Source: a virus
Length of the DNA: 64,000 nucleotides
Strand: one strand, 5' to 3'
UHGV virus genome: UHGV-1550212
The translations under genes and the position numbers were made by a program. How positions within the stretch are numbered: position 1 is the stretch's first letter; the number at the start of each line of letters is the position of its first letter. Shown here in pieces: positions 2,137-62,262 of the stretch. The notes beneath the pieces are model-generated. The model ran no database searches, had not been told where the DNA came from, and worked only from the letters and a program-made list of their open reading frames with translations.

Positions 2137-2220
2137 ACCAGAGTTGAGTAGTTTTCATAAGCGAAAAGACTTTTGTATGTGAAATTTATTGACATATTAT
2201 ATATCATGCTGCACTACGCA

Positions 2221-2256
2221 CAAAAAGAAGAGCATCGGTTGATAACCGATGCTCTT
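2221..2256 (-). terminator. rho-independent terminator
   Basis: Perfect 13-bp stem AAGAGCATCGGTT / AACCGATGCTCTT with 3-nt loop, followed on the minus strand by a T-run; 50 nt downstream of the stop of 2305..2919. Confidence 0.5.
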
Positions 2257-2304: not shown

Positions 2305-2919
2305 TTACGATACAGTCCACGGGCAGTTTGCAGTAACCGTAACCGTAACTGCAGGAGTACCGGCCTGAGGAATCTTGATTTCCTGCTTGTCGAGCACCAG
2401 CGTCGGGTCACCAGCAGCCTGAACGATTGCAATCTGAGCAGTCTGGGCACCGTTGGCAGTTACCAAAATCGATGTCGTACGCTCATCAATCGTCAAGTTG
2501 GCGGGAATGTCAAGCTCAATGCTGAACGCAAACTCAGCGCTAGCACCAGGGTCACCAGTGATTGCCACACCGTTGTTGGTTTCTACACCAGCAACCGCGT
2601 ACTTTTCAGGCAGTTCGATAACGAACTCGCCGCCCTCAACGACGCTGAACGTCAGCTTCAATGAGTTAGATACACCGGTTACGGTAAGAGTACCGCCAGC
2701 CTTAGGAGCTGACATCTCTGAACCGTTGTCAAATGACACGAATTCAGCCTTTGCAGTCTGCTGCACATTGTACGTCGAAGGCGTCGAAATACCGGCACCC
2801 TGAACGGTTACGACACCAGTACGTGCAATACGACCAGTGTGGGCGTCAGCAGAGTTGGAAATTGAACCATTACCCGAACCAGATGTCGGGCTAAGTTTCA
2901 ACCATGCGGGTTTAGCCAT
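2305..2919 (-). CDS. BACON-like N-terminal-domain protein (tail/fibre associated)
   Basis: 204 aa, ATG confirmed. N-terminus MAKPAWLKLSPTSGSGNGSISNSADAHTGRIARTGVVTV fits the BACON pattern (W..SP.sGsGN.....a..HTGR..R.G..tv); paralogous N-terminus with 2976..3575 and 3647..7975. Confidence 0.55.
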   Translation of the reverse strand: MAKPAWLKLSPTSGSGNGSISNSADAHTGRIARTGVVTVQGAGISTPSTYNVQQTAKAEFVSFDNGSEMSAPKAGGTLTVTGVSNSLKLTFSVVEGGEFVIELPEKYAVAGVETNNGVAITGDPGASAEFAFSIELDIPANLTIDERTTSILVTANGAQTAQIAIVQAAGDPTLVLDKQEIKIPQAGTPAVTVTVTANCPWTVS

Positions 2920-2975
2920 TGTTCAAAATTGTTATAAAGTGAGTGTATATGTGTACAAAATTCGATGATTGCTCA

Positions 2976-3575
2976 TCAAAGAATTTTCCAAGAAGCATTT
3001 GATGTCAAGTTCATTGTGATTGTTGTGCCGTCATCATCGACTGTCACAGACTCTGTGCTCAATACAAGAGTTGCTGCCGCAGCTGCTTGAGTAATACTAA
3101 CATTCAATGACTTGCCACCAGGTGTCGTCACTGTCAATACAAATGATTTCTGTTCAATTGTCAAATTTTGCGGTATTGTAACTTCAATTGACCAAGCAAA
3201 CTTTGCAATATATCCAGGGTCATTTGCAATTGCTGTGTCATTTGTTGCAGCGGCGCCATTTGCTGTGTACGCAGTCGGAATGCTAAGATTCGGATTTGTA
3301 GTTGCAAACTTAAGTTTTGCTGCGTTAGACTCACCAGAAACGACAATTTTTGTGGCAGCAGCAATCACATTATATGATGCTGTGCCTGACACAAATTCTG
3401 CAAGAGCAGCTTGGTTAATCGTCGTTTGCTTTGTAACTGTAGGTGTAGTCTTCGTTTGCACAGTCGCAATTGTGCTACGAATGCCTCTACCTGTATGAGC
3501 TCCTGCAGTAAATGCCAGGATATCATTGCCTTCACCAGACATTGGTGAACACTGCGCCCATATAGCTTTTGCCAT
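2976..3575 (-). CDS. BACON-like N-terminal-domain protein (tail/fibre associated)
   Basis: 199 aa, ATG confirmed; N-terminus MAKAIWAQCSPMSGEGNDILAFTAGAHTGRGIRSTIATV paralogous to the two neighbours. Confidence 0.55.
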   Translation of the reverse strand: MAKAIWAQCSPMSGEGNDILAFTAGAHTGRGIRSTIATVQTKTTPTVTKQTTINQAALAEFVSGTASYNVIAAATKIVVSGESNAAKLKFATTNPNLSIPTAYTANGAAATNDTAIANDPGYIAKFAWSIEVTIPQNLTIEQKSFVLTVTTPGGKSLNVSITQAAAAATLVLSTESVTVDDDGTTITMNLTSNASWKIL

Positions 3576-3646
3576 TGTTACTGTGCAATTTTTAATTGTT
3601 TGACATGATATTTATATGCATTGCTTAAGCAATGTTGAATTGACAT

Positions 3647-6600
3647 TTATCGAACAAGGAATGACGTACCAACAACCATATTCGGGATTGCCAAGCCATT
3701 GCCAGACTGGCTTACTGCAACTGTGCCACTTGTGTAACCTGACAATGCTGCAGTAATTGTTGCCGACCTGCTGTTATCTGAACCCCAGTTATTTGCAGCG
3801 GACAATGTCGAACCTCTGATTGTGAATGCGCCATTGTTCGATGAGTACGTTGGAGTAACCGCAGCATCTGATGTTGTAGACTGACCTGTCGTGTACTTTG
3901 TGACAGTTCGACCTGTCGTAGACAATGTTGCAGTGCCACCAGCAGCCCCAAAGCTTGTAACAGTTGAGCTGACAATCAGAGTCTTCGTAGTCGAAGTCAC
4001 ACTGTTGGCTTCCTGTGTAGCAGTGATTGCTTTTGAGCCAGTTTGACCATTCAACGCAACCGTCATATTGACTGTAGCGGTTCTTGCAGAACCAGCAGTT
4101 GTGCCACGATTTGCAGCAGTCAATGAACCGGTTGTACTACTGTTAAGCGTAAAGCCAGTAGTTGTAGCCATACTGTATGAAATTGTACCGCCAGATGTAA
4201 TAGTAGTTTTTGAACCACTTGTGTACGTTGCTGTCTGCGAGTATGCTGGCGTGCCTGTTGGAGTCTTTGTTGCACCTGCTGCAGCAAATGTTGCATATGA
4301 TGTTGCTGTAGTAACTGTGACTGCACTGTATGATACACTGTTAGTTGCTTGATAGACATCAAGTGCTTTTGTAGCAGTCTTAGACCCTTCACCAGTAGCA
4401 GTTGCAGTCAAAGTGCCAATCTTTGTACGAGCTTTAACTGTAGTGCCAAGCGATGATGCGCTGACTTTTGTGCTATACGCAATGCTAACTGAGCCTGCCC
4501 TTGTGCTGCCAGACGTATATGTAATTGTCTGTGATGCACTGATGCCAGACATTGATGCGACTTCACCACCGCCAGCAGGAATATCTGATACAGAACCACC
4601 AGAGATTGTTACTGCGCCATATGTCGTAATTGCATTTGCAGCTTGGTACACATCGACTGCTTTTGTTCCAGATTTGCCATTGACTGTTACAGTAACAGTA
4701 GATGTTGTAATCTTTGTGCGGGCTTTAGCAGTAGTGCCAAGTGAACTACCAGACACTGCGCCAGTAGACGTTGTTACACCAGTACCAGACCATGATTTGC
4801 TGCCGCCAGACGTAACTGTCTGTGTTGAGCCACTTGACCACGTAACTGATTGACTGAATGACACCGTAGGCGTAACTGAGCCGCCTTTTGCAGGAATATC
4901 ACCATAAGTCATCGAAACTGTTGGCATGCCATATGTAGCAGCATTAGCATTTTGAGATGCAGTAGCAGTCTTTGTTCCACTGATAGTCTTTGTGCCTGCT
5001 GCGTTGTATGATGCAGTTGGCGTCCATGTAGCCTTTACAGTCTTTGTGACTGTTGGCGATGTTGTTGCACCACTTGCAGTAGTGCCTTTTGATGATGCGG
5101 TTATAGCACCAGTAGATGCATTGAGTGCAGTGAACAATCCTGATGCGCCTGGCCAGCTATATGATGTTGTAGTTGACAATGAACCATACGTAGATGCTGG
5201 CGCAGTAGTTGAAGTACTGCCACTACTAAAGTGGTATGTTACTGTGTTTGCACCATTTGACGGTGTAGATGTTCCGCCACCTGCAGCAATTGCAGGATAT
5301 GACATCGAACCAACTGCAATATTGAGTGCAGTCACATAGTTGCCTGCCTGATAAATCGTTGCAGACTTGCTGGCAGATTTGCCATTCATTGTGACTTTAA
5401 CAGTCAGTGTACCTGCAGTAGTCTGGTTAGATATTGTAGTGCCCTTTGATTGCACAGTGACTGTCGATGTGTACTCAATTGTTCCGCCGCTTGTCAGTGT
5501 TTCTGTCGTCTTTTCACCAGTAGCATATGTCGTAGTTTTGACTTGCGAATAAGTTACTGTACCAGATTTTACAGAACCGCCGCTTGCTGCAATGATAGTT
5601 GCAGACGGTGTCAAGTTAACTGTGATATCGCTATATGTAACTGTGCCAGCAGATTGAGCTGCTTGATAAACATCTGCAGCTTTTGATGCAGACTTACCGT
5701 TGAGTGCTACTGTGACAGTTAATGTGCCAATCTTTGTTCGTGGCTTAACTGATGTGCCAAGTGATGATGCAGATATACCTGCTGCTGGGCTATATGAAAT
5801 TGTGCCACCAGTAGTAATGTTCTGAGTTGATGTTGATGTGTATGTAGCAGTCTGCGAATATGACACATTGCCACTCTTAATTGTACCACCAGTTGCAGGA
5901 ATATCTGCTACAGTGAAGCTTGAAATTGTAACTGCGCCATATGACACAGTGTTTGCAGCTTGCTTGACTGTGCAAGAACCAGTTTTTGTAACACCGCCCT
6001 CAGTGTATGAGCCAGAAATTGTAATGCTGCGTTCTGCGCCTACGACTGTTGTGCGATTTGCTGCAGTTACTGTAGTAGTCGACAATGTAAAGCCAGTTGC
6101 TGAACCGCTAAGTGTTGCAGATACTGCAGCAGATGACGTTGAGCCTGATGCATATGTGTATGACGCTGTTGAAGTGATTGTAGTTGAACCGCCACCAGCT
6201 GCCAATGTTGCAGCGCCAGGTGTCAATGTCAAGCCATTCAGCGTCTTTGAGTTTGCAGTTTGTGTTGCAGTAGCAGTTTTTGTAGCAGACTTGCCATTGA
6301 TTGCTACCGTAACTGTGACAGCATTTGAAGCATCAGTAGAGCCTACATATGATGTGCCCATTGACGTTACAGTCAATGCGCCACTTGTCGTATTCAATGT
6401 CCAGCGTGACTTAGCAGTCATTGCATAAGACAATGTAGCACCACTTGTCAATGTGCCACCTGAGCCAGCTACGCCATTCCAAGTCCAGACTTGTGAATAT
6501 GAAACAGTTGGGTTTGATGTACCACCAGCAGGAGCAATGTTTGAATATGAGAACGTTCCAATGACAGGCGTTTCATAGACTTTAGCGCCTGCAGCTTGGT

Positions 6601-7975
6601 TAAACGTGATGTCTTTTGATGCAGACTTACCATTTGCGGTGACTGTCAAGGTAACAACAAATCCATTACGTGCAGCAGTAGAATTGTTGTTTGTCACTGC
6701 GACATTCAAGCCAGATAAGCTATAGCCTGTTACAGCAGTTTTGACCGCAGCAGTCCATGTGCCACCTGATGTGTTGCTGTCAGTTGAACCGCTGCTGTAT
6801 GTCATTGACTGCGTAAATGTTGCAGATGCATTGGCTGCAACAGTTTGACCTGCTACTGCAAGAGCAACTGGTGTTGTCTTTGTAATGACTGGCGTGCCAT
6901 ATGTAATGCTGTTAGCAGCTTGTGTAATCGATACAGTAGCAGTTGCATTGCCATATGACGCTGTGCCACTAAATGACCGAGCATCACCGACAGTCTTGCC
7001 ACGATTTGCAGATGTTACAGAATTTGCAGATATCGTAAATCCTGTTGCAGTGCCAGTAATTGTAGGCTTGACATTTGTTTCAGTAGATGTAACAACACCA
7101 TTCCATGTTACAGTGTAAGTGCCTGTGATTGTTGATGTTCCACCTGCTGCAGTATGACTTGTTGAATATGCGTTCAGAGCAAGTTTGTATACGACTGAGC
7201 CTGCTGCTTGTGAACATTTAACAGTCTTCGATAAGTCATGACCACTTACAGTCAGTGTTGGTGTAACTGCTGCAGTTGATGCATTGTTCGGTGTATTGAC
7301 AGTGATTGTTACAGGGCCTGTGCCAGATGCTTTTGAGACTGACCAACCTGCAGGTACGCCTGAAATTGTCCATGCAAAGTCAGGGTTACAAGAAATTGCG
7401 AATGTTTTCGATTCACCCTTTGCAACAAATGACAGAGTTTCTGGTGATACTGCCAATGTTGCACTTGCACCAGCTTGATTTACAGTAAATGCTGCAGACT
7501 CGCCACCAGGCGTTGACAATGTAAAAGTGAACGCCTTTGCAGCGATTGCAGTATGTGCATCAATCTGCACTCGTACAATCACTTCAAATTCAGCATTGAC
7601 ACCAGGGTCATTGTCAAAGTTTGTGTTGAGCTCGTAGTTTTTGCCTGCAACAGTCACGCCAAGCACTGTGCCGCTTGCAGTACCACCAGTACTGCCAAGC
7701 ACAAGTTTTTGTGCATTTGTGACGCATTTCAATGTTGCAATAGTGCCACCATTTGACGCAATGTTTGTAGATGCAACTGTAGCTCGTATAGTTTCACCAG
7801 GAGACTCTTGCAATACTGCACAGTTTTCAGTTACTACTGGTGAACCTGTAGTTGTTTGCGCAGTAAAGCTGCCAGACCTGTTATTTCGACCAGTATGCAC
7901 AGATGCTTTGACAGACAACTGTGAGTTGCCTGTGCCAACATCAGGTGTAACTGTCAACCAAGTAGGCTTTGCCAT
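3647..7975 (-). CDS. large tail fibre/adhesin-like protein with BACON-like N-terminus and tandem Ig-like repeats
   Basis: 1442 aa, ATG confirmed; BACON-like N-terminus, then very Thr/Ser/Gly/Ala/Val-rich repetitive beta-rich sequence with recurring GGT.SG, LNGKSASK and VYQA motifs typical of Ig-like repeat arrays. Confidence 0.6.
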   Translation of the reverse strand: MAKPTWLTVTPDVGTGNSQLSVKASVHTGRNNRSGSFTAQTTTGSPVVTENCAVLQESPGETIRATVASTNIASNGGTIATLKCVTNAQKLVLGSTGGTASGTVLGVTVAGKNYELNTNFDNDPGVNAEFEVIVRVQIDAHTAIAAKAFTFTLSTPGGESAAFTVNQAGASATLAVSPETLSFVAKGESKTFAISCNPDFAWTISGVPAGWSVSKASGTGPVTITVNTPNNASTAAVTPTLTVSGHDLSKTVKCSQAAGSVVYKLALNAYSTSHTAAGGTSTITGTYTVTWNGVVTSTETNVKPTITGTATGFTISANSVTSANRGKTVGDARSFSGTASYGNATATVSITQAANSITYGTPVITKTTPVALAVAGQTVAANASATFTQSMTYSSGSTDSNTSGGTWTAAVKTAVTGYSLSGLNVAVTNNNSTAARNGFVVTLTVTANGKSASKDITFNQAAGAKVYETPVIGTFSYSNIAPAGGTSNPTVSYSQVWTWNGVAGSGGTLTSGATLSYAMTAKSRWTLNTTSGALTVTSMGTSYVGSTDASNAVTVTVAINGKSATKTATATQTANSKTLNGLTLTPGAATLAAGGGSTTITSTASYTYASGSTSSAAVSATLSGSATGFTLSTTTVTAANRTTVVGAERSITISGSYTEGGVTKTGSCTVKQAANTVSYGAVTISSFTVADIPATGGTIKSGNVSYSQTATYTSTSTQNITTGGTISYSPAAGISASSLGTSVKPRTKIGTLTVTVALNGKSASKAADVYQAAQSAGTVTYSDITVNLTPSATIIAASGGSVKSGTVTYSQVKTTTYATGEKTTETLTSGGTIEYTSTVTVQSKGTTISNQTTAGTLTVKVTMNGKSASKSATIYQAGNYVTALNIAVGSMSYPAIAAGGGTSTPSNGANTVTYHFSSGSTSTTAPASTYGSLSTTTSYSWPGASGLFTALNASTGAITASSKGTTASGATTSPTVTKTVKATWTPTASYNAAGTKTISGTKTATASQNANAATYGMPTVSMTYGDIPAKGGSVTPTVSFSQSVTWSSGSTQTVTSGGSKSWSGTGVTTSTGAVSGSSLGTTAKARTKITTSTVTVTVNGKSGTKAVDVYQAANAITTYGAVTISGGSVSDIPAGGGEVASMSGISASQTITYTSGSTRAGSVSIAYSTKVSASSLGTTVKARTKIGTLTATATGEGSKTATKALDVYQATNSVSYSAVTVTTATSYATFAAAGATKTPTGTPAYSQTATYTSGSKTTITSGGTISYSMATTTGFTLNSSTTGSLTAANRGTTAGSARTATVNMTVALNGQTGSKAITATQEANSVTSTTKTLIVSSTVTSFGAAGGTATLSTTGRTVTKYTTGQSTTSDAAVTPTYSSNNGAFTIRGSTLSAANNWGSDNSRSATITAALSGYTSGTVAVSQSGNGLAIPNMVVGTSFLVR

Positions 7976-8030: not shown

Positions 8031-9959
8031 TTATCGAACATGCCAAAGAGTGTTCGACTTCACATTGACAGAGCTCTTAAAGTTATTATGACTGCACAGC
8101 CAAACATGCGACTTGTCAAGTTCTGCATAAGCATCTGACTTTAAGAATGCTTCAGAAGATTTGCTTGTCTGTTGCTTTGTCATTGACGCATCACCTACAA
8201 GCATTGCAGTCGAACCTTTATACACTTGTTGCGCATCATCTGCAATTAACGTAGCTTCAAATGGCTGTTGTTGCATAAGCAATGCAAGCGTAGACCGACA
8301 TGAATCTTTGTCTACTCTTATATGTGTAATTTTGCCGGCAAAACCATACAGCTGAACAATGTCTGAGTCATTTGACCAGTCATGCAAAATTGATGTAGAC
8401 TTAACAACTTCTGTCAAGATTTGCATGTCATTGACTGTGGTCGATGTTGACAAACTCAGTACAAGTTCAACGTCACCATTGTTAAGATTGCGTTGTCTAA
8501 TGACTACGCCGTTCCAGCTCTTGCAAATCTTATCATCTACGCTTGCTAAGCTTTCGCCAGTTTTGACATCAAGCACATGTAACAAGCCAGATGACACTGC
8601 AAGCATCAATCTGCCAAGTCGCATCAGTTGCCATGATGCTGCTTGAGCTTTTGCATTGTCTTCAAGCATAAACAAGCAACATGCAGACCAATCTGACGTA
8701 TCAAGTGATTTGACATACTCAACTGCAATGTCATTGCCAACTGCATTCATATCATAATATGCAGCAGACACTGGCACATATTTGAACGACAGCGGTGATT
8801 CATTTACACTGACTGCTTTATGAATGAATCTACGATTATTTTCGTACATGCTCAAGTCGACATGCATGTCATTAACAAACATATTGAGAGCAATGTCTTC
8901 GACTTGTTCAGTTGCAACTTTGTCTGCATCAAAAGTATCAAATGTTTTTGTGAGCTCGTCCAAATTAAGTATCTCTTTCACATCATCAGCAACTTGCATT
9001 TTAGACTCGTCACGGTATTCAGGTCGGTGCTCATATGACTTCAATGTCAGCTCATAATATGGCGTTGATAACATAATGCCATCTGGATGTTGCACAGATG
9101 CAACTTCAAGCATTCGATTTGCTATTGGTACATAGCAATAGTCAAATTGCTGTGGCTGCTTGCCAATGCCAAACACTCGTTCGTATTCTGCTTTTGGCAC
9201 ATGAGCCGTTATACCTTGTTCAAAGTCAATGTCAAATGCGTCATATGTGACTTTGTTCGTGCTAAATTCATTGTCAACAACCATCAGCTTCAGCCACTTA
9301 ACTGCACCAGTATGAATCAAGTCATATGCACGTAATGATGCAACACGATGTTCATCTGACACTTCATGACTAAACCAGATAACAACATGACCAAGCTGAC
9401 GATTCACAGCATTTACAATGTTATCTTGCAATACTATAGCATCTTGCATGTGCGTGTATGGATTGTACAGATGATTGTCTGATTCAATGACAATTGATGC
9501 TTGTTTTGCTGGTGCAAGAATCTCATCAGCGTATGTGACATTGTCAACAGATTCTTCGTTGACTTTGATATCTTCGAGTACGTATGAGTCATGACGAACG
9601 TTTGCTGCATCTGTCCATTGCTTGCGCCATGCAACATCAACAATCATAATGAACTTGACATGTACAGGCTCATCTGCAGTTGCATATGCAAGTACAAACT
9701 CATTCAAATGTGTCGCAGCGTCATACACAGAACCAGGCTCAGACCATGTCTTGCCTGCATCTACAGACCATTTGAATTGCACATTGAGCATTGCATAACA
9801 TTGCTCAGCGTTATCAACAAGCTCAATGTTATTCAATGAGCCTTTGATATCTACAGCAAATTCAAGATACAGTGTAGAATCTTGTCTTACGATGATGCAA
9901 TCGTCATCAGCCCTTTGTGACACTGACTGCTTTGTTGATTCGTTTGATGACTTTGCCAT
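8031..9959 (-). CDS. hypothetical structural protein (baseplate/tail module)
   Basis: 642-aa ORF, ATG confirmed; position within the structural gene block; no recognisable catalytic motif. Confidence 0.5.
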   Translation of the reverse strand: MAKSSNESTKQSVSQRADDDCIIVRQDSTLYLEFAVDIKGSLNNIELVDNAEQCYAMLNVQFKWSVDAGKTWSEPGSVYDAATHLNEFVLAYATADEPVHVKFIMIVDVAWRKQWTDAANVRHDSYVLEDIKVNEESVDNVTYADEILAPAKQASIVIESDNHLYNPYTHMQDAIVLQDNIVNAVNRQLGHVVIWFSHEVSDEHRVASLRAYDLIHTGAVKWLKLMVVDNEFSTNKVTYDAFDIDFEQGITAHVPKAEYERVFGIGKQPQQFDYCYVPIANRMLEVASVQHPDGIMLSTPYYELTLKSYEHRPEYRDESKMQVADDVKEILNLDELTKTFDTFDADKVATEQVEDIALNMFVNDMHVDLSMYENNRRFIHKAVSVNESPLSFKYVPVSAAYYDMNAVGNDIAVEYVKSLDTSDWSACCLFMLEDNAKAQAASWQLMRLGRLMLAVSSGLLHVLDVKTGESLASVDDKICKSWNGVVIRQRNLNNGDVELVLSLSTSTTVNDMQILTEVVKSTSILHDWSNDSDIVQLYGFAGKITHIRVDKDSCRSTLALLMQQQPFEATLIADDAQQVYKGSTAMLVGDASMTKQQTSKSSEAFLKSDAYAELDKSHVWLCSHNNFKSSVNVKSNTLWHVR

Positions 9960-11935: not shown

Positions 11936-13261
11936 TCATTCTGCGATTTCCCAGATTCGTGTTCGTTTATTTGCTATGCTTCGTACTACAGCACTGTCAC
12001 CTATGCGAACATCCCATGCTCGATTTGATGTCAATGTGATGTTCTTTGTGCCACCAGGCTGCTCAAATGATAAGTTTGCTTTGTCAAGTTCAAGCAATGG
12101 GGCCAAGTCCATGCTTTGGTCAATAAGCCAGTCAAAGTACTCAGCGTCAATTTGCGATGTATCAATGTCTGCTTCTGTGACTACAAAAATGTCATTAAGC
12201 TTGTTTGGTCTAACAGTGTCACCAATTGGCTCAAATGCAGTGCTTGGCAGAAGCATTGTATGTGGACGAATGTAAATGATGTCTTCATCTACAAATGCAT
12301 TCATATCTTTAACTATAATTTGCGCTGCTGGCGTGTATGGTTTTGATGTTACAATTTCTGCATTGTCTGAGCCATACAAATATCGAGCCATGTATGATGC
12401 AAAAACATCAATGCTGACATCTGCAAAATGAATGTGCTCTGGCAAAAAGACGTCTTCAAGAATCATGACAAGATACTGCAGCTTCAGCAACAAATCTTGA
12501 TTGTCTGCCATGTTCTTGACAAATTCAGGCATGCCACAATTCAGATATTTGCCAGACGCTTCATTGTATTCATAGGTCAATTGCAGCAAATTTGTGCGTT
12601 TGTACATGCCTGCGTATGGCGAAATGTCATCTTGCAATGGCAGCAATGTTCTGTTGTTGCCATCAAGTGATTTGAGCACTTCATAGATGCGAACAGCTTC
12701 ACTGTAGCCAAGCCAGTCTAATGCAGCATGCAACCCATTGTATGTGCCAAGCTTGCTGTCAATATCATCTCGTCGTATAAGCCACTCTCTTGCTTTGCTA
12801 TTCTGCAATATGAAGTCAACGACATCTTGTCGAATGTCATTCAGCATCAATGCTTTGTTGTAGTACTCAAGATAGTCATGACCCATATTAGACATCATGA
12901 CAAGCAAACGTTCATCAGCATCAACTACTGTAGCAGTCACATTGATATGCAATGCAATGTCATCAACGACAACTTCAATTGCACAAACGTTGTTGCCAAC
13001 ATCGACAGCATTGAATATGATGTTTGCAGTCATGTCGTCATTGACAAGATGCCGAGTAGTCTTATCTACAAGCAGCAATTCATTATTCTCATTAACTGCA
13101 AAGAAACTCAATGCAGACGATAGCAATCTAACTGTGCATTCAACATTGTCTGAAAACAATGATGCAATGTTATATGTGCCCTTTGACACATTGCCAAGCT
13201 CTATGTTAGCGCCGTCATAGATGCGCTTGCCGAATCTGTCAAAAATGTTTATTGCAGCCAT
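11936..13261 (-). CDS. hypothetical structural protein
   Basis: Track ORF 11936..13285 begins with TTG; first ATG is codon 9 (cat at 13259-13261), used here. Confidence 0.5.
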   Translation of the reverse strand: MAAINIFDRFGKRIYDGANIELGNVSKGTYNIASLFSDNVECTVRLLSSALSFFAVNENNELLLVDKTTRHLVNDDMTANIIFNAVDVGNNVCAIEVVVDDIALHINVTATVVDADERLLVMMSNMGHDYLEYYNKALMLNDIRQDVVDFILQNSKAREWLIRRDDIDSKLGTYNGLHAALDWLGYSEAVRIYEVLKSLDGNNRTLLPLQDDISPYAGMYKRTNLLQLTYEYNEASGKYLNCGMPEFVKNMADNQDLLLKLQYLVMILEDVFLPEHIHFADVSIDVFASYMARYLYGSDNAEIVTSKPYTPAAQIIVKDMNAFVDEDIIYIRPHTMLLPSTAFEPIGDTVRPNKLNDIFVVTEADIDTSQIDAEYFDWLIDQSMDLAPLLELDKANLSFEQPGGTKNITLTSNRAWDVRIGDSAVVRSIANKRTRIWEIAE

Positions 13262-13524
13262 GTTACAGTTTCTTATCAATGTCAAAGTTTCTTGTCAATA
13301 TCAAAATATGACGTAAAGCGATTCACAAATTCAACAAACAAAATCGATAGTGCGTCACACATGCCAATGAGAGTTGACACGCCAAAATACGCTGCAACTC
13401 TTGTGCTCTTATTGAACACTACTCTACTATACACACCACTCTGCCATGATGGCTTTGCAGTGACAAGCATTGATTGCTTGATTTTGTCTCTTGTAGTGAA
13501 ATTCGATTGCATATTTGTGAATCA

Positions 13525-15135
13525 TCAACATTCTACATACGAGCCATCAGTGTTTTCAACAAGCACTTTGATACTCAAGCTTACATCTGTGCCTTGTTGA
13601 CTTCTTATCAATGGCACAATGTCTTTTGCTTGCGGTGCAATATTGCCCATATTGTCAATGTGCTTGTCATTGCCAATGAACTGCACATCTACTGATTTGA
13701 TGACATCAAGCTCTTCAAGTTTTGCAATTGCAGCAGAACGACTAACGAATGTCGATGCATTTGACCAGGAGTCTTCTACAAACGCTTTTGCGGCATCAAG
13801 CAGTTGTTGTTTGACGTCTTCTATGTTTTGCAGTACTGCAGTCTTTTTGACAAGAATGAGCATTTGATAAAATTCAAGTTGCACAGTGTCAAATTGCACA
13901 TCAGTTAGCAGCACATAGTCACCAGTGTTTTCGATAGCATTGTTCAGATATTGTCTATCTGTAGAGTCAATCGTAAATTCTGCTATTGGCAATGACCAGT
14001 AGTCATACACTATTGAGCTCGCTTTGACATACTTGTCTGCAATGTTGGGCACCAGTACAACATGAATTGTCTGAGTCTCTGTATTTGACCAGACATCAAG
14101 TATCTTGTACTGACCAAAACGTGACATAAACGCCCTGATTGAATCTGCTGAGTGCAATACAAGCGCCCTGTTAATTGAACCTGCATGTGAACGTATTGAT
14201 TCGATGTCTTCACCATTGTAGCCGCCGACAATATCTGTCAGCTGTTCAATGACTAATACACCCTTTGGGCTTACAGCAGTAGTGTTTGCATCATACATGC
14301 CATTGACCCATTCAAATGTTGCGTCATTGTCAATCAAAATGTTTCCTGCATAGCCCTCACATGCAGTGTATTCTACATTGACAACTGCATTTTGTGCAGG
14401 AATTTGACCAGCAGTGCCATTGCCAAACACAATCTGTAGTTTGCCATCATATGACCAGCGTTCAATATACCCCTTGCTGTATCTGTCCATTTCATCAAAC
14501 CCTGCATAGCGAGTCCACAGCTCATTGCCAACTGTGACAGTCAATGAATCTTCAGATACAATCAAGTTGCGTTCTTCGATAGTGAATGTTGTCATTGACT
14601 CGCCATCAGAAATGTATTGCTGAGACTTGCGTTCACCTTGTCTGACTGCGAATTCATATCGTACACCCGTCAACTCATTGTTGATGTTGAGTTGCGCAAA
14701 GTCTTGATGCATATCGATGTAGTACATCAATGAGTTCTCTTTGCATTTAATTGCTGCATATCGTTTAATGAACACAGTTGGACCAAGCTCTTTGACTGCA
14801 TCATATGAAAAACTCAATGCAATTTTGCCTGATGCTGCAATGCCACCAACACATTTGTAACATGCAAGCTGTGCAAGTCCTCGTACAGATGCGGTCTGTT
14901 CTGCAGTAAGCAAGTTGTTTTCTTTTGTGCCTACTACAATTTGCGTAAAGATGAGTGACGCAAGTTCTCTGAAACTCTGAACAAGAATTCCAAAAATTGT
15001 GTACTTACCATATTGTTTCTTTGTAGAGTTCAGCAAATTCTGCAGCCAAGTATCTATAGACTGTGACACACCTGAATATGACATTTGCATTTTCTGCATC
15101 CACGTCATATTGTCACGAGTGTTATTTGTGCGCAT
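13525..15135 (-). CDS. hypothetical structural protein
   Basis: Track ORF 13525..15237; its first ~34 codons translate the 30-bp tandem repeats, so the start is placed at ATG 15135 (MRTNNTRDNMTWMQ); ATGs at 15108 and 15099 are also possible. Confidence 0.5.
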   Translation of the reverse strand: MRTNNTRDNMTWMQKMQMSYSGVSQSIDTWLQNLLNSTKKQYGKYTIFGILVQSFRELASLIFTQIVVGTKENNLLTAEQTASVRGLAQLACYKCVGGIAASGKIALSFSYDAVKELGPTVFIKRYAAIKCKENSLMYYIDMHQDFAQLNINNELTGVRYEFAVRQGERKSQQYISDGESMTTFTIEERNLIVSEDSLTVTVGNELWTRYAGFDEMDRYSKGYIERWSYDGKLQIVFGNGTAGQIPAQNAVVNVEYTACEGYAGNILIDNDATFEWVNGMYDANTTAVSPKGVLVIEQLTDIVGGYNGEDIESIRSHAGSINRALVLHSADSIRAFMSRFGQYKILDVWSNTETQTIHVVLVPNIADKYVKASSIVYDYWSLPIAEFTIDSTDRQYLNNAIENTGDYVLLTDVQFDTVQLEFYQMLILVKKTAVLQNIEDVKQQLLDAAKAFVEDSWSNASTFVSRSAAIAKLEELDVIKSVDVQFIGNDKHIDNMGNIAPQAKDIVPLIRSQQGTDVSLSIKVLVENTDGSYVEC

Positions 15136-15160
15136 ATCAGTTAATTTGTTTGTATATGTA

Positions 15161-15232
15161 TTCGAATGTGCACACATGAGAATAGGTCTCTTCGAATGTG
15201 CACATATGAGAATAAGTCTCTTCGAATATGTA
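15161..15232 (-). repeat. tandem ~30-bp direct repeats (2.4 copies) with TGTGCACA palindromic core
   Basis: TTCGAATGTGCACACATGAGAATAGGTCTC (15161-15190), TTCGAATGTGCACATATGAGAATAAGTCTC (15191-15220), then a partial copy TTCGAATATGTACACA; sits between a terminator and the gene start. Confidence 0.6.
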
Positions 15233-15266
15233 CACAAAAAGAAGAGCTTGCATATGCAAGCTCTTC
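15233..15266 (-). terminator. rho-independent terminator
   Basis: Perfect palindrome GAAGAGCTTGCATATGCAAGCTCTTC (15241-15266) followed on the minus strand by TTTTTG; 43 nt downstream of the stop of 15309..15692. Confidence 0.55.
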
Positions 15267-18065: not shown

Positions 18066-18962
18066 TTACAATGTTCCGCAAAGCAATTCACGTAAATCCA
18101 TGCCAGCTTGTGTACTATACTGAGCAATAAGATTACGTTCTGAATCAGACATGCTCCAATAAATCTTATGCTGAGCTCTACGAATAATAGTATGAATGCC
18201 AGATGTGCTACAATTGAACTTCTTTGCAAGTTCTGCATGAGTTAACAAATCCGCATCGCCAAGGCCATACACATGTGTGAGTACAAGCTTTTCATTTTGA
18301 GTGAGTTGTTCAAATGCTCTTTGCAGAATCTTTGTGTTGCGTTTGTGAGCATCCTCGATTTCAAGAACTTCTTGGCCTGTTTTGAAGTCTGACCTCAAAT
18401 CATTCTGAACTGGTGACCATGCATCACCATCTTTATCAAGTGTAGTGTCATCCTTACTGGTGAATTGTTTGCCTTCAAGAGCTCTTTCATATGCTCCACG
18501 AATACCAGTAGATAATTGTTGACTTGTCAGATTGAGTTCGTCAAGCACATATTTCTTAATCCAAGGATATGCATATGTGCTAAACTTTGCTTCACGAACT
18601 CCTGCAGGCAATACGCCTTCTACGTAATTCTTGGCTGCTATTGACAATCCAAGATTGCCTGCTTGAATGACGTCATCCAATGGAACCGAGCGTTTGCCAG
18701 ATGCGAACCATAAGCTTCGTGCAACTGATATGACCAATCTTAAACAAGATTTGATAAGAGCTTCACGATTTTCTTGAGTCTTCTTGAATCGAGTAACATC
18801 ACAATATCGCTTTGCAGTAGCCAGCGATTTGACTTCTTCAGGAGTAAGCTCATTCTCCATCCTCATTTGCTTGAGCTCCTCCTTTGTGTATAGACGTTCT
18901 CTTGTGATTCTACCTACGTCCTTTACGTAGCCTTGATTGATTTGTGAATTTGAACCTGCCAT
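18066..18962 (-). CDS. sigma-70-family RNA polymerase sigma factor
   Basis: 298 aa, ATG confirmed. DDVIQAGNLGLSIAAKNYV...KFSTYAYPWIKKYVLDEL matches sigma-70 region 2 (DLIQEGNIGLMKAV...RFSTYATWWIRQAI); C-terminal HAELAKKFNCSTSGIHTIIRRAQHKI is a region-4-like helix-turn-helix. Confidence 0.6.
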   Translation of the reverse strand: MAGSNSQINQGYVKDVGRITRERLYTKEELKQMRMENELTPEEVKSLATAKRYCDVTRFKKTQENREALIKSCLRLVISVARSLWFASGKRSVPLDDVIQAGNLGLSIAAKNYVEGVLPAGVREAKFSTYAYPWIKKYVLDELNLTSQQLSTGIRGAYERALEGKQFTSKDDTTLDKDGDAWSPVQNDLRSDFKTGQEVLEIEDAHKRNTKILQRAFEQLTQNEKLVLTHVYGLGDADLLTHAELAKKFNCSTSGIHTIIRRAQHKIYWSMSDSERNLIAQYSTQAGMDLRELLCGTL

Positions 18963-35289: not shown

Positions 35290-36585
35290 CTATTGTTTGC
35301 GTTGTAATGTCAGTAGTCCACAGTCATATACAGGTAAAAATCCTGCAGCATTGTAGTCTTCTGCATGTGATATGTCATTGTCTATAAAATGCTCACCAGT
35401 TCGCATATTATGCCAATGACATTGTATAACATTGCTTACTAATTTATAGTCATCTACATATTTTGTAGGGTCTTCTTTTGACAAGTCTATTGTAATAACG
35501 TCGGCAGTTTTCAATTGTTCTGTGTCATCGATGATTGACTTTAGCAATGCGACAATTGTATCAGCGTCATCCCAATCCCAAATTGTGACGCATCGATAGC
35601 CTTGCGACATTGCTTTGCAACATTTGTCTGCATGACTATTTGCATGTCTATGCCAATTTGCTGCAGAGCGGCCTGTCATATACTCAAAGCTATACGCACT
35701 ATTATGCGTAAACGTTGGATTGATTTCAATTGCTATGTTCTCATAGCGTAAGTCATATGTAAATGATTCTATTTGCGGTTGCTCAAACTCAAATTGAACG
35801 TTAAGCGATTCTAACAAGTATCGTTGCCACCATTGATTTTGCTTAGATATGATGTGACCTTGCGCAAGTTTACAATGTGTAGTCATGCAATAATATGGCA
35901 CACCATAACGCATCATATTTGTACGTACAACTGCTTGTGTGCGTCGTTTTAAGTCACCGCCCCACTTGTTGCCATACCGTTCAAGCTTTGTTTGCGTTGC
36001 CAGTTGTATATTCACACATCCATTTGCTTTGCCATATCGTTCAAGTTTGACTTGCGTAATTTTGTCCATAGGCCCAAATGCATTACCAAATTGTGCAATC
36101 TTTGTAGCTTTCATTTTGTCAATATTGCCAACACCTTTGCTGCCAAATCGAACAAGCTTAGTGTCGCCAACTTTGCATTTAACATCATGCAATTGTGATA
36201 TGAATTCTACACCGTATTTGAGCAAGTTATTGATGCGACCATTATAACGCTGTTTAATGATGCCATGCGATGTTTTGCGTGGTGCATAACGAACAAATGG
36301 TGTATTAGCAAGTTCAGCATCTCGCAATTCTTCAAGTTCTTTTATTCGAGCTGCATGTTCAGATGCGTTATCATATTGCAACGCGCCAGCATGACGTTCA
36401 TATGGCAATCTTCCATGCTTACGTATGAAAGCAATTTTGTTTGCATATTGCACACGTATCTTACTATGTGTAGATACTCTTGCGCTTAATTTTGCATATG
36501 GCGTTTCTGCAATCAATTTATCACGTTCAGCTTCAAGTTCTTTTATTCGAGCTTCAAGAGCATCACCAGTTAGTCGTTCAGCCAT
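35290..36585 (-). CDS. homing-endonuclease-like protein, paralogue 2 (with internal N-terminal module duplication)
   Basis: Track ORF 35290..36633; start placed at ATG 36583-36585 (MAERLTGDALEARIKELE). Coiled-coil N-terminal module present twice (nt 36300-36360 and 36500-36560 share CTTCAAGTTCTTTTATTCGAGC), R/K-YG repeats, C-terminal block IEINPTFTHNS ... VYDCG. Divergently adjacent to the terminase start. Confidence 0.4.
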   Translation of the reverse strand: MAERLTGDALEARIKELEAERDKLIAETPYAKLSARVSTHSKIRVQYANKIAFIRKHGRLPYERHAGALQYDNASEHAARIKELEELRDAELANTPFVRYAPRKTSHGIIKQRYNGRINNLLKYGVEFISQLHDVKCKVGDTKLVRFGSKGVGNIDKMKATKIAQFGNAFGPMDKITQVKLERYGKANGCVNIQLATQTKLERYGNKWGGDLKRRTQAVVRTNMMRYGVPYYCMTTHCKLAQGHIISKQNQWWQRYLLESLNVQFEFEQPQIESFTYDLRYENIAIEINPTFTHNSAYSFEYMTGRSAANWHRHANSHADKCCKAMSQGYRCVTIWDWDDADTIVALLKSIIDDTEQLKTADVITIDLSKEDPTKYVDDYKLVSNVIQCHWHNMRTGEHFIDNDISHAEDYNAAGFLPVYDCGLLTLQRKQ

Positions 36586-36652
36586 TGTGCATGAATGTTC
36601 AATATGTAAATTCACTATATGTACATATAACACGAATATTCAAGTTAGATGC

Positions 36653-60701: not shown

Positions 60702-61079
60702 GCAAATATATTTTTGTTTGTATATGTACATAAAAGAGCAAGTTCTCAATGTGGAGAACTTGCTCAGCTGACCTGTTGCCAGGTGAAAGCGTGGTGCAGC
60801 ACCTTGTGCTGCAATGGCTATGCTGCCATCGCCATAACGGGCTGAGCATTGCCCAGCATCATTACACGACCAGCTGCATTAAGCGTACGCTTTGCTTTGT
60901 TGAAAAATTTGCCAGTTATCTGGTATCTGCACATCTATTCAAGCGACCTACTATGCAATCAAATGCCTGTCGAGCCCAATGTTTGAGCAGTTGTTTGTCA
61001 GATGCTCAGCTGACTGCAGTCTTTCTGAGTGTATCAAGTTCAGCGATTCTGCATCTTTGCTAAATGGCAATAGTTCAGG

Positions 61080-61155
61080 TGGACTCGCCGAGAATCGAAC
61101 TCGGGTCTTACATAGCGCATCCTTGACTTGGTCCTGTAAACAGGGTTGTCAACAT
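61080..61155 (-). pseudogene. tRNA-like 3' fragment (T-arm plus acceptor 3' strand only)
   Basis: Minus strand: CCGAG-TTCGATT-CTCGG followed by CGAGTCC-A, but no matching 5' acceptor strand, D-arm or anticodon arm within 80 nt upstream. Confidence 0.3.
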
Positions 61156-61160
61156 GCATT

Positions 61161-61231
61161 GCAATACGACAGGACTCGAACCTGCGACCTCGGATTGGAC
61201 GTCCGCGCTCTTACCGCTGAGCTACGTATTC
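61161..61231 (-). tRNA. tRNA, probably tRNA-Gly (anticodon TCC); Trp (CCA) not excluded
   Basis: Minus strand: GAATACG-TA-GCTC-AGCGGTAA-GAGC-GCGGA-CGTCCAA-TCCGA-GGTC-GCAGG-TTCGAGT-CCTGT-CGTATTG-C. Canonical D- and T-arms; anticodon stem has a G-A pair and position 33 is G, so the register is uncertain. Hand fold. Confidence 0.5.
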
Positions 61232-61321
61232 TTATCAATTGACTGCACTGCAATGCAATCAATCGTGCCAATGATATTTGACGCATAATTGCAGTTATGC
61301 GTAACAATTCAAATGTCATTG

Positions 61322-61394
61322 AGCCAACTGCAGGAGTCGAACCTGTAACCTGCTGATTACAAATCAGCTGCTCTGCCAATTGAGCTAAGTTGGC
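61322..61394 (-). tRNA. tRNA-Thr (anticodon TGT)
   Basis: Minus strand: GCCAACT-TA-GCTC-AATTGGCA-GAGC-A-GCTGA-TTTGTAA-TCAGC-AGGTT-ACAGG-TTCGACT-CCTGC-AGTTGGC-T; perfect 7-bp acceptor and 5-bp anticodon stem. Confidence 0.8.
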
Positions 61395-61476
61395 ATAAAG
61401 TCGTTGGGCCATTGCAACCCAAACCTATCATCTTTGTCTAACCAAAGATGCAAGTGTTCTCTTACACCACGACTTG

Positions 61477-61548
61477 TAGCCGAACTTGGAGTCGAACCAA
61501 GCTTTCGAGAATGAAAATCTCGCGTCCTAACCGATAGACGAAACGGCC
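61477..61548 (-). tRNA. tRNA-Glu (anticodon TTC), acceptor stem imperfect
   Basis: Minus strand: GGCCGTT-TC-GTCT-ATCGGTTA-GGAC-G-CGAGA-TTTTCAT-TCTCG-AAAG-CTTGG-TTCGACT-CCAAG-TTCGGCT-A; D-arm identical in form to E. coli tRNA-Glu, but acceptor pairs 6-67 and 7-66 are T-T. Confidence 0.5.
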
Positions 61549-61635
61549 AAGAGCAGTTCAAGTCTGCAGCATTGAACTGCGGAAACAATGCCTGTACGGG
61601 CAGCAAATTGTGCAGATACAGCGACATTGCAAAAT

Positions 61636-61728
61636 CACACCGAACCAAGTTTGTGGCTCTTCTGTCTCATAAAAACAAGTAATCATTACACTTGGCACCA
61701 ATGATTCTGATGTAAAAATCGGTGTGTT
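61636..61728. ncRNA. structured RNA-like element with 8-bp terminal inverted repeat (not a canonical tRNA)
   Basis: CACACCGA (61636-61643) pairs with TCGGTGTG (61721-61728); internal hairpin CAAGT-AATCATTAC-ACTTG; no T-loop consensus. Lies between tRNA-Glu and tRNA-Ser. Confidence 0.25.
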
Positions 61729-61731
61729 ATG

Positions 61732-61816
61732 CGGAGAGTAAGGGATTCGAACCCCTGGTACGTTGCCGTACAGTGGTTTTCAAGACCACCGCCATCGACC
61801 GCTCGGCCAACTCTCC
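61732..61816 (-). tRNA. tRNA-Ser (anticodon TGA), long variable arm
   Basis: Minus strand: GGAGAGT-TG-GCCG-AGCGGTCGAT-GGC-G-GTGGT-CTTGAAA-ACCAC-TGTACGGCAACGTACC-AGGGG-TTCGAAT-CCCTT-ACTCTCC-G. Confidence 0.8.
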
Positions 61817-62092: not shown

Positions 62093-62182
62093 ATTTACAA
62101 ATGCAATCTATTTCACAACTGTTTGCATTTGCATTGTTTAACACTAAAAATATGATTCATCTAATCAAAAACCAGAGAATTG

Positions 62183-62256: not shown

Positions 62257-62262
62257 AAGTAG

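What the first reader, a model, noticed from the sequence alone, without database searches (positions are those of the whole stretch)
2305..7975. Three consecutive genes sharing a BACON-like N-terminal module, one expanded into a 1442-aa Ig-repeat fibre
The N-termini MAKPAWLKLSPTSGSGNGSIS...HTGRIARTGVVTV, MAKAIWAQCSPMSGEGNDIL...HTGRGIRSTIATV and MAKPTWLTVTPDVGTGNSQLS...HTGRNNRSGSFTA are clear paralogues fitting the BACON pattern, while the downstream parts differ in length and sequence. This looks like a shared attachment/anchor module fused to alternative distal domains, a layout expected for interchangeable receptor-binding proteins, and it points to a Bacteroidetes-associated, glycan-rich host surface.
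Basis: partly seen in the sequence, partly recalled or inferred. Interest (0 to 1): 0.5.

Follow-up and report, generated by a model that had tools for sequence, protein, structure and literature searches.

The report
Split BACON domain joins phage fibre proteins
Three neighbouring phage genes each begin with the back half of a BACON (immunoglobulin-like) fold, and in about 80 gut-phage loci the gene just upstream ends with the missing front half, so the fold is probably rebuilt from two separate proteins as a snap-together joint that hangs fibres on the virus particle.

Summary
The three minus-strand genes are real: gA 3647-7975 (1442 aa), gB 2976-3575 (199 aa), gC 2305-2919 (204 aa). They are intact and under purifying selection in two relatives.

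The similarity covers the whole ~200-aa unit (28-36% identity, E 1e-36 to 2e-17), not just the N-terminus. The N-terminal "BACON module" is only the second half of a BACON domain. The first half sits at the C-terminus of gB and gC.

The main finding is that a BACON domain is split across gene boundaries. The upstream 642-aa neck-protein-like gene ends in a first-half "tag" 55 nt before gA. In 81 loci from other gut phages, an ORF ending 8-40 nt upstream of the gC-like gene ends in a first-half-like sequence. A tail HMM scores 80 of 86 such ORFs at 5 bits or more, against 14 of 4251 other ORFs. These upstream proteins have several dissimilar N-terminal parts. Naturally fused relatives show a full-length BACON across the junction. 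Stop codons and variable spacers argue against translational fusion.

Best reading: the two half-domains complement each other and dock the fibre proteins onto an anchor, possibly in chains. No physical contact has been shown. I found no published description of this arrangement.

The parts
8031..9959 (-). Anchor gene (642 aa), T4 gp14 / head-closure-like neck protein candidate
   Evidence: PF11649 T4_neck-protein is hit by 8 of 10 family members (best E 8.7e-6; the window protein scores 16.4 bits, below the cut-off of 25). phrog_679 'head closure Hc2' E 5.9e-5. dN/dS 0.05-0.07.
8034..8132 (-). C-terminal adaptor-type tag of the anchor (about the last 33 aa, ...HVWLCSHNNFKSSVNVKSNTLWHVR*), read as a BACON first half
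   Evidence: An HMM built only from adaptor C-termini of other phages hits it at E 5.4e-9, 33.5 bits. The module-tail HMM gives 15.1 bits. Concatenating it with the gA N-terminus extends the BACON_2 alignment from positions 42-83 to 20-83 and raises the score from 20.7 to 25.5 bits. It is kept in anchor homologues P0271 and P0276-P0279.
7811..7975 (-). gA head: BACON second half (aa 1-55, MAKPTWLTVTPDVGTGN...HTGRNNRSGSFTAQ...)
   Evidence: BACON 28.3 bits at model positions 8-57 of 61; BACON_2 at positions 42-83 of 94. Head HMM 86 bits.
7466..7810 (-). gA middle domain M (aa 56-170), a beta-rich domain that reads as BACON-like by eye
   Evidence: Aligns with the middle of gB and gC. AlphaFold2 strands 63-167. 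No significant Pfam hit of its own.
7199..7465 (-). gA contiguous BACON domain (aa 171-259): first half and second half in one chain
3698..7195 (-). gA array of 11 repeats of about 100 aa (aa 261-1426), Thr/Ser/Ala/Gly-rich, most ending Q(A/T)AN
   Evidence: Repeat HMM E 1e-18 to 1e-35 per copy; 22 repeat pairs with BLASTP E<=1e-3. DNA-level repeats. No Pfam family.
3650..3697 (-). gA conserved C-terminal peptide (GLAIPNMVVGTSFLVR*), function unknown
   Evidence: Similar ends in the long fibres of related phages...GEMIVESNFFVR* (807 aa) and ...GSMVVGSTFQVF* (2524 aa). It matches neither tail HMM.
2976..3575 (-). gB (199 aa): head (nt 3411-3575) + M + module-type tail (nt 2979-3074, ...TLVLSTESVTVDDDGTTITMNLTSNASWKIL*)
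   Evidence: Tail 28.5 bits with the module-tail HMM. dN/dS 0.06-0.10.
2305..2919 (-). gC (204 aa): head (nt 2755-2919) + M + module-type tail (nt 2308-2406, ...TLVLDKQEIKIPQAGTPAVTVTVTANCPWTVS*); member of the widespread ~200-aa module family
   Evidence: Pfam BACON 37.6 bits. 456 homologues; the 120 best listed are 201-205 aa. AF2 pLDDT 95.8, pTM 0.82. gB tail + gC head gives BACON_2 positions 7-93 of 94 at 28.9 bits.
2228..2256 (-). Intrinsic-terminator-like hairpin (13-bp stem, then a T-run) that closes the gene series
12008..12094 (-). Possible extra first-half element near the C-terminus of the 449-aa ORF (11936-13285): ...LSFEQPGGTKNITLTSNRAWDVR, followed by 22 aa
   Evidence: Tail HMM E 5.8e-5 within the window; 9.9 bits. 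The L093 homologue (454 aa) ends ...IGIESNTGWNLQD*. Weak; its role is unknown.

Best explanation
A BACON (Ig-like, eight-strand) fold is encoded in two pieces on separate proteins. I propose it is re-formed non-covalently, as a docking joint for virion appendages.

The unit is a ~200-aa module: head (BACON strands 5-8), then a middle beta-domain, then tail (BACON strands 1-4). An anchor protein carries only a C-terminal first-half tag. Here the anchor is the 642-aa neck-protein-like product; elsewhere it is a small adaptor. The tag is proposed to pair with the head of the next protein to complete one BACON domain.

A module's own tail can then accept another head. On that logic the anchor starts a chain, the short modules gB and gC extend it, and the long fibre gA, which has a head but no tail, ends it. 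In this window the counts balance: three first halves (anchor, gB, gC) and three free heads (gA, gB, gC).

Shown: the half-domain anatomy, the conserved adjacency of tag and head across a gene boundary, separate translation, and the fused natural relatives.
Inferred: the physical pairing, the chain order, and attachment at the neck.

The likely role of the assembled fibres is weak, multivalent adhesion to surface glycans of a Bacteroidota host or of mucus. That rests on the family's name and habitat, not on any data here.

For: (2) Conserved split. In 81 loci from IMG/VR and other assemblies, an ORF ending 8-40 nt upstream of the module's ATG ends in L.V.P.YIWL.P.NNF.D.V.V.SN..W-type sequence. 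A module-tail HMM scores >=5 bits in 80 of 86 ORFs ending within 80 nt upstream of a head-bearing ORF, against 14 of 4251 other ORFs. Several of those 14 are modules or adaptors that my pattern missed.

(3) Portable tag. The upstream proteins have dissimilar N-terminal parts: 63, 70, 72-83, 84, 126, 137, 201 and 642 aa. An HMM of their tails hits the window anchor at E 5e-9 and three tags in P0276.

(4) Rosetta-stone fusions. In P0127, P0151, P0162 and P0125, Pfam calls full-length BACON_2 (positions 2-92, 30-40 bits) exactly across the tail-head junctions. P0189 has an adaptor-type tag (aa 223-254, E 1.6e-10) running straight into a module head (257-309, E 1e-19).

(5) Separate polypeptides. 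Stop codons close the module frame before it reaches the adaptor ORF in 75 of 81 loci, and the gaps fall in all three frames. 1-2-nt indels in the spacers between strains change the relative frames while every ORF stays intact at dN/dS 0.05-0.29.

(6) Same grammar in related myophages: 683(tag) > 209 > 2524 > 206, and 613 > 201 > 807 > 210 > 210.
Against: - No physical evidence.
- AlphaFold2 folds gC alone with very high confidence, both termini included (pLDDT 95.8, pTM 0.82). That fits the head and its own tail closing within one chain. The upstream tag would then be unpaired, or would have to displace the tail.
- In phages with a single module there are two first halves for one head, so something stays unpaired unless modules polymerise.
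- The Pfam score gains on concatenation are modest (5-7 bits).
- The head of gA keeps pLDDT 81-91 without a partner.
- One genome, csAssE-Sib, has a solitary module with no ORF upstream on the same strand. The L093 anchor has no recognisable tag.
- A distance-correlation test gave no specific tag-head covariation beyond shared ancestry.
- The neck assignment rests on sub-threshold hits.
Confidence: 0.6

Rival explanations
1. Self-closing circular permutant. Each ~200-aa module folds on its own, with its N-terminal second half and C-terminal first half meeting to form one BACON domain beside the middle domain. The proteins act as free-standing decoration or adhesin proteins, and the upstream tags are not partners. 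A softer version makes the closed form a pre-assembly state that is opened by exchange with the tag, which is compatible with the best explanation.
For: - AF2 monomer of gC: pLDDT 95.8, pTM 0.82, no low-confidence termini.
- The family's fixed length (201-205 aa in the 120 best hits) and fixed phase.
- The module occurs as a single copy in many phages.
- One genome has a solitary module without an adaptor.
Against: - It does not explain why proteins with dissimilar N-terminal parts end in a conserved first-half tag right before the module in about 80 loci.
- It does not explain why fused relatives place tag or tail and head contiguously.
- In the gC monomer model only 6 of the last 32 residues are in strands, against 21 of 32 in the contiguous domain of gA.
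- gA has a head but no free tail.
Confidence: 0.2
2. Interchangeable receptor-binding proteins. gA, gB and gC are alternative occupants of one attachment site through a shared N-terminal anchor, each giving a different host specificity.
For: - There are three heads but only one adaptor-type tag in the window.
- Number, order and length of the head-bearing genes differ between related phages.
- The genes sit at the end of the tail/neck gene block.
Against: - gB and gC have no distinct distal domain. They are the same unit as gA residues 1-205.
- gC-like proteins stay 57-67% identical across unrelated phage backbones, which is unlike fast-evolving receptor-binding tips.
- No receptor-binding or depolymerase family was hit.
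Confidence: 0.12
3. Translational joining. Frameshifting, read-through or ribosomal bypassing fuses the upstream protein to the module, so the BACON domain is made as one chain.
For: - Short gaps (8-72 nt) between the stop and the ATG.
- Precedents from general knowledge: Ig-like domains added to phage structural proteins by programmed frameshifts, and the 50-nt bypass in T4 gene 60.
Against: - In-frame stops upstream of the module ATG in 75 of 81 loci, and gaps in all three relative frames.
- Spacer indels between strains.
- A nearly invariant Met-Ala-Lys-Pro start with an A-rich leader.
Confidence: 0.04
4. Debris or artefact. The small genes are fragments of a decaying long BACON-repeat gene, or result from assembly or sequencing errors.
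For: The units look as if cut out of phase from a tandem array.
Against: - Identical gene structure in two independently assembled relatives, with dN/dS 0.06-0.29.
- Hundreds of homologues of the same length from many samples.
Confidence: 0.02

Closest known systems
BACON domain (Pfam PF13004; viral PF19190), e.g. the N-terminal domain of Bacteroides ovatus GH5 xyloglucanase, PDB 3ZMR
   Different: Known BACON domains are contiguous. Here the domain is cut between strands 4 and 5, and the halves lie at opposite ends of a protein and on neighbouring proteins.
BACON-domain proteins of crAss-like and other gut phages (de Jonge et al. 2019, PMC6949934)
   Same: Gut-phage BACON proteins: some as tandem arrays near tail genes, some as single-domain ORFs near head or structural genes, with horizontal spread between lineages. 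The module here also occurs in Crassvirales genomes.
   Different: In the results section read here, that study counts domains per ORF and describes no split across ORFs or out-of-phase unit. It notes a shortened, variable N-terminus in the crAss-BACON profile. I suggest, without having tested it, that half-domains may contribute to this. gA has one contiguous BACON plus 11 repeats of another kind, not a BACON array.
Donor-strand complementation in chaperone-usher pili and strand exchange in Bacteroidota type V pili (general knowledge)
   Different: Half a domain (four strands) is supplied rather than one strand. No chaperone, usher or protease partner was found among the neighbouring genes scanned. 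The proteins lack signal peptides by inspection, which suggests they assemble in the cytoplasm on a virion.
Anchor-adaptor attachment of phage receptor-binding proteins (T4 gp10-like docking domains in CBA120, G7C and Klebsiella phages) and T4 whiskers (fibritin on the gp13/gp14 neck) (general knowledge)
   Same: A conserved N-terminal element docks variable appendages onto a structural protein. Gene number varies between relatives. The anchor resembles the T4 gp14 neck protein.
   Different: The docking surface is not a folded adaptor domain that binds a peptide. It is the missing half of the same fold. No sequence similarity to those systems was found.
Ig-like decoration domains on phage structural proteins (T4 Hoc; Fraser et al. 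2006) (general knowledge)
   Same: Promiscuous, horizontally spread Ig-like modules with a presumed weak glycan-adhesion role.
   Different: Those domains are fused in one chain or added by frameshift. Here the link is proposed to be non-covalent, through a split domain.

Membership tests
BACON domain (PF13004 / PF19190) | Profile-HMM score above the curated cut-off | tested here: inconclusive
   gC 37.6 bits (cut-off 25): met. gA as a whole protein 20.2 bits, its first 60 aa alone 28.3 bits. gB has no hit.
BACON domain (PF13004 / PF19190) | A complete, contiguous domain in one polypeptide | tested here: not met
   The N-termini cover only BACON_2 positions 42-93 of 94. Full coverage (7-93) appears only when the upstream C-terminus is joined on. 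Exception: gA aa 171-259 is contiguous.
BACON domain (PF13004 / PF19190) | Conserved W, N, R and Q residues (as listed in PMC6949934) | tested here: met
   W6, N17, R30/R33 and Q54-56 are invariant or nearly invariant in 66 sequences and in the three window paralogues.
BACON domain (PF13004 / PF19190) | Beta-sandwich fold matching solved BACON domains | tested here: met
BACON domain (PF13004 / PF19190) | Carbohydrate or cell-surface association | not testable with these tools
The family's function is itself debated: PMC6949934 cites structural work describing bacterial BACON domains as linkers.
crAssphage-type BACON tandem-repeat tail protein | Several BACON domains in tandem within one ORF | tested here: not met
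   gA has one contiguous BACON plus half a domain. Its 11 repeats hit no BACON profile significantly (1 of 11 at E 0.056).
Donor-strand-complemented pili (chaperone-usher or type V) | Subunit with an incomplete Ig-like fold | tested here: met
   Half-domains at the termini, shown by profile alignment.
Donor-strand-complemented pili (chaperone-usher or type V) | The fold is completed by the neighbouring subunit | not testable with these tools
   Inferred from conserved tag-head adjacency and natural fusions. No multimer modelling or structure was available.
Donor-strand-complemented pili (chaperone-usher or type V) | Dedicated chaperone and usher, or a processing protease, and secretion signals | tested here: not met
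   No such family appeared among the 18 neighbouring window proteins scanned. The N-termini (MAKPxW...) show no signal peptide by inspection. So this is not a member; it only works like one.
T4 gp14-type neck / head-closure protein (PF11649, phrog_679), for the 642-aa anchor | Profile-HMM match | tested here: inconclusive
   The window protein scores 16.4 bits (cut-off 25). 8 of 10 family members hit, best E 8.7e-6. phrog_679 E 5.9e-5. No PDB sequence match, even with a family profile.
Phage receptor-binding protein / tail fibre | Recognisable receptor-binding or enzymatic distal domain, attached at the baseplate | tested here: not met
   No such Pfam or PHROG hit for gA, gB or gC. The genes follow a neck-like gene rather than the baseplate wedge gene (13525-15237). 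Actual binding is not testable here.

The most novel reading that the evidence does not exclude
Gut phages of several unrelated lineages (myophages, siphophage-like, Crassvirales) share a pilus-like, snap-together appendage system. Anchors with a first-half BACON tag start a chain. ~200-aa modules with complementary half-domains at both ends extend it as an open-ended non-covalent chain. Long head-only fibres cap it. This would be a natural split-domain assembly code that lets phages swap, lengthen or multiply virion fibres by shuffling whole genes. It could also be borrowed as a protein-ligation tag.
Probability: 0.3. Interest if true: 0.85.

Novelty: new variant of a known kind. Interest (0 to 1): 0.7.

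Why it matters
If the halves do pair, this is a simple and widespread way for phages to hang and exchange surface fibres, without covalent fusion and without a dedicated adaptor domain.

- It would explain why BACON or Ig-like genes move so freely between unrelated gut phages.
- It would give a rule for predicting which virion proteins connect: one that ends with a tag connects to one that starts with a head.
- It would correct current annotations of these genes ('lipocalin-like protein', 'glycosyl hydrolase family 5 protein').
- It would offer a natural split-domain pair for protein engineering.
- It makes the architecture of uncultured Bacteroidota-phage appendages testable with a few co-expression or cryo-EM experiments.

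Tried and rejected
- Near-identical DNA search of the phage collection: no match. Close relatives came only from IMG/VR and raw assemblies.
- 'Mini-tail' idea, that the conserved C-terminal peptide of the long fibres (..NMVVGTSFLVR*) is a truncated first half: rejected. It scores 1.6 and -2.1 bits with the two tail HMMs.
- T4-type late promoter in the spacers: TATAAATA occurs twice in 64 kb (1.5 expected), and TAAATATCA is not enriched (29 against 25.5). Dropped.
- Exact 671-nt spacing: this is the spacing of the stop codons, not the starts. It is not conserved in relatives because of spacer indels, so I treat it as coincidence.
- Tag-head covariation by distance correlation: all segment pairs correlate at 0.86-0.94, so the test cannot discriminate. 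It shows only that adaptor and module are inherited together.
- AF2 of gA(1-262), to see which second half would be left orphan: every part came out moderately confident, so it was not decisive.
- Foldseek against PDB with gC: only generic tandem Ig-like hits.
- PDB sequence searches for the anchor (single sequence and profile) and the 516-aa neighbour: nothing.
- PHROG scan of seven adaptors: no informative family.
- gA repeats against Pfam and against the module profile: no significant family; only the last ~22 columns resemble the end of the M domain (hhalign probability 5%).
- Homologue search with gA(1-262): only three weak hits.
- Literature searches for a split or permuted BACON, or for donor-strand-type assembly in phage fibres: nothing found. 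Subscription journals are not covered.
Full report
OBSERVATION. A hairpin with a 13-bp stem and a T-run (2228-2256) follows gC. The window is part of a large contractile-tailed phage. A 175-kb IMG/VR contig is about 96% identical over this region. Tape-measure-like and baseplate-wedge genes lie upstream on the same strand. The three proteins are paralogues well beyond chance (BLASTP E 1e-36, 9e-19, 2e-17). An HMM of their first 40 residues finds only these three among 705 stop-to-stop ORFs of the window. Two relatives about 95% identical in DNA keep all genes intact and the same length, with dN/dS 0.05-0.29. They are real, selected genes.

First, the similarity is not confined to the N-terminus. 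gB and gC align over their full length with gA residues 1-205 (28-36% identity), and significance survives removal of the first 55 residues (E 2e-25 to 4e-7). Second, the N-terminal element is only half a BACON domain. gC passes Pfam BACON (37.6 bits). However, against the 94-position viral BACON_2 model, the N-termini of gA and gC align only to positions 42-93 and 42-83. gB has no Pfam hit. The other half is at the C-termini: gB ends ...TLVLSTESVTVDDDGTTITMNLTSNASWKIL* and gC ends ...TLVLDKQEIKIPQAGTPAVTVTVTANCPWTVS*. Joining the gB tail to the gC head gives a BACON_2 match over positions 7-93 (28.9 against 22.0 bits). The unit is therefore head (strands 5-8), a middle beta-domain, then tail (strands 1-4), as if cut half a domain out of phase from a BACON array.

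THE SPLIT IS ACROSS GENES AND IS CONSERVED. The 642-aa protein encoded just upstream of gA ends ...HVWLCSHNNFKSSVNVKSNTLWHVR*, 55 nt before gA's ATG. Joining it to the gA head extends the BACON_2 alignment from 42-83 to 20-83. gC belongs to a large family: 456 hits, of which the 120 best listed are 201-205 aa at 57-94% identity. A profile search of 1.84 billion representatives returns many diverged free-standing 198-226-aa members, nearly all matching from head to tail. This module occurs as a single copy in unrelated backbones: a P22-portal type, an SPP1-portal type with a contractile-tail tube, a siphovirus-like contig, and Crassvirales genomes. In the latter it is annotated 'lipocalin-like protein' or 'glycosyl hydrolase family 5 protein'.

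In these loci, the ORF that ends 8-40 nt upstream of the module's start ends in a first-half sequence of the type L.V.P.YIWL.P.NNF.D.V.V.SN..W. There are 81 such pairs, with 37 distinct upstream proteins. As a control, I built an HMM from module tails only. It scores >=5 bits in 80 of 86 ORFs that end within 80 nt upstream of a head-bearing ORF, against 14 of 4251 other ORFs. The best of those 14 are modules and adaptors that my pattern had missed.

The upstream proteins have dissimilar N-terminal parts: an 'MGC...' type of 72-83 aa, and types of 63, 70, 84, 126, 137, 201 and 642 aa. The half-domain therefore behaves as a portable C-terminal tag. An HMM of those tags, built without the window, hits the window's 642-aa C-terminus at E 5e-9. 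It also hits the L094 anchor homologue (E 4e-6) and three separate tags in the 761-aa homologue P0276 (E 2e-10 to 5e-8).

SEPARATE PROTEINS, NOT A TRANSLATIONAL TRICK. The module's reading frame is closed by stop codons before it reaches the upstream ORF in 75 of 81 loci, and the gaps fall in all three relative frames. In the window's relatives, 1-2-nt indels in the spacers shift the relative frames without harm. The Met-Ala-Lys-Pro start is nearly invariant. The leaders are A-rich and lack Shine-Dalgarno cores, as in all 45 genes checked. From general knowledge this is the Bacteroidota style of initiation.

ROSETTA-STONE FUSIONS. Some relatives are natural fusions. Two modules are fused in P0127, P0151 and P0162 (411-433 aa), and four in P0125 (807 aa). 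In each, Pfam calls a full-length BACON_2 (positions 2-92, 30-40 bits, above the cut-off) exactly across the tail-head junction. P0189 has an unrelated N-terminal domain, then an adaptor-type tag (aa 223-254, E 1.6e-10) running straight into a module head (257-309, E 1e-19). By the usual gene-fusion logic, pieces that are contiguous in some genomes and separate in others are expected to interact.

CONTEXT IN RELATED PHAGES. The anchor family (10 members at 34-97% identity) hits Pfam T4_neck-protein in 8 of 10 members (best E 8.7e-6) and PHROG 'head closure Hc2'. All of these hits are modest. Downstream of the anchor, the array differs by phage:
- window: 1442 / 199 / 204 aa;
- L094: 209 / 2524 / 206 aa;
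- L093: 201 / 807 / 210 / 210 aa.
All of these begin with a head. The short ones end with a tail. The long ones end instead with a conserved peptide..NMVVGTSFLVR*..GSMVVGSTFQVF*..GEMIVESNFFVR*. In the window and in L094 the counts balance, with three first halves (anchor plus two short modules) and three free heads.

MECHANISM PROPOSED. The tag of an anchor and the head of the next protein re-form one BACON domain non-covalently. Modules, having a tail as well, can pass the connection on, and long head-only fibres end the chain. This works like donor-strand complementation in pili, but with half a domain and without chaperone or usher. The steps shown are the anatomy, the conserved adjacency, separate translation and the fusions. 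The steps inferred are the pairing itself, the chain order, the neck location and an adhesive role.

THE MAIN RIVAL. The module may close on itself. AlphaFold2 folds gC alone at pLDDT 95.8 and pTM 0.82, termini included. I could not inspect coordinates. The tail has only 6 of 32 residues in strands in that model, against 21 of 32 in gA's contiguous domain, which is suggestive but not decisive. A closed monomer could also be the pre-assembly state. In single-module phages one first half must remain unpaired unless modules polymerise, and this is unexplained. The exceptions seen are a solitary module in csAssE-Sib and an anchor without a recognisable tag in L093.

COMPARISON AND NOVELTY. Phage BACON proteins and their horizontal spread are known (PMC6949934). 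In the parts of that study read here, domains are counted per ORF and no split or out-of-phase unit is reported. PhicrAss001 head fibres anchor through short N-terminal segments in capsid pockets (PMC10172136), which may be an analogy for the small adaptors. Six literature searches found no description of a split or permuted BACON, or of fold complementation in phage fibres; subscription journals are not covered. I class it as a new variant of a known kind: non-covalent fold complementation applied to a BACON domain as a phage docking joint.

Noticed in passing
window 60727-62334 (minus strand): A cluster of seven tRNA genes (Gly, Thr, Glu, Ser, Leu, Pro, Gln), plus an ARAGORN 'tmRNA*' call with tag peptide GKFFNKAKRTLNAAGRVMMLGNAQPVMAMAA. 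The tmRNA call was not verified.
   Followed up: no
window 18066-18962 (minus strand); also L093 145-1041, L094 514-1407, L095 526-1428: A sigma-factor-like gene (phrog_351, E 5e-25; Sigma70_r2/r4 in relatives) sits inside the structural gene block and is conserved in position in related phages.
   Followed up: no
window 3650-3697; L093 12539-14962; L094 12901-20475: The long head-bearing fibres (1442, 807 and 2524 aa) all end in a conserved peptide G.M.V..S.F.V[RF]* that matches neither tail HMM. Its function is unknown.
   Followed up: partly
proteins P0276-P0278 (761-771 aa anchor homologues): These anchor homologues carry three adaptor-type first-half tags, two adjacent internal ones and one C-terminal (E 2e-10 to 5e-8). 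This suggests up to three docking sites per subunit.
   Followed up: partly
window 11936-13285 (minus strand); L093 6357-7721: The 449-aa ORF downstream (in the direction of transcription) of the baseplate-wedge gene has a first-half BACON-like stretch near its C-terminus (...LSFEQPGGTKNITLTSNRAWDVR, then 22 aa). Its L093 homologue ends ...IGIESNTGWNLQD*. This may be a further docking site.
   Followed up: partly
window, 45 minus-strand gene starts: No gene has a Shine-Dalgarno-like core in the 20 nt upstream, and the leaders are 44% A. This is consistent with a Bacteroidota host.
   Followed up: partly
window 35290-36633 and 36425-38644: A homing-endonuclease-like ORF (phrog_3339, E 2.7e-7) lies next to the only long plus-strand ORF (739 aa) in an otherwise minus-strand window.
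   Followed up: no
L095 about 12150-12270: Downstream of the anchor gene in this relative there is a hairpin and then tandem repeats of about 27 nt (CATATGCAATCCTCATTGCATTCGG...) running to the contig end. No module gene is visible there.
   Followed up: no
window 2137-2204; L001 20826-20892: A 68-nt stretch just downstream of the terminator after gC has a 97% identical inverted copy about 3 kb further on in the IMG/VR relative, beyond the start of this window.
   Followed up: no
L010 (phage csAssE-Sib, OR575929.1) 5004-5660: A solitary module gene on the opposite strand to its neighbours, which are replication and nucleotide-metabolism genes, with no adaptor upstream. It is annotated 'glycosyl hydrolase family 5 protein', although the protein is only 218 aa and aligns to gC over residues 3-204. 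In cr111_1 and cr127_1 the same family is annotated 'lipocalin-like protein'.
   Followed up: partly
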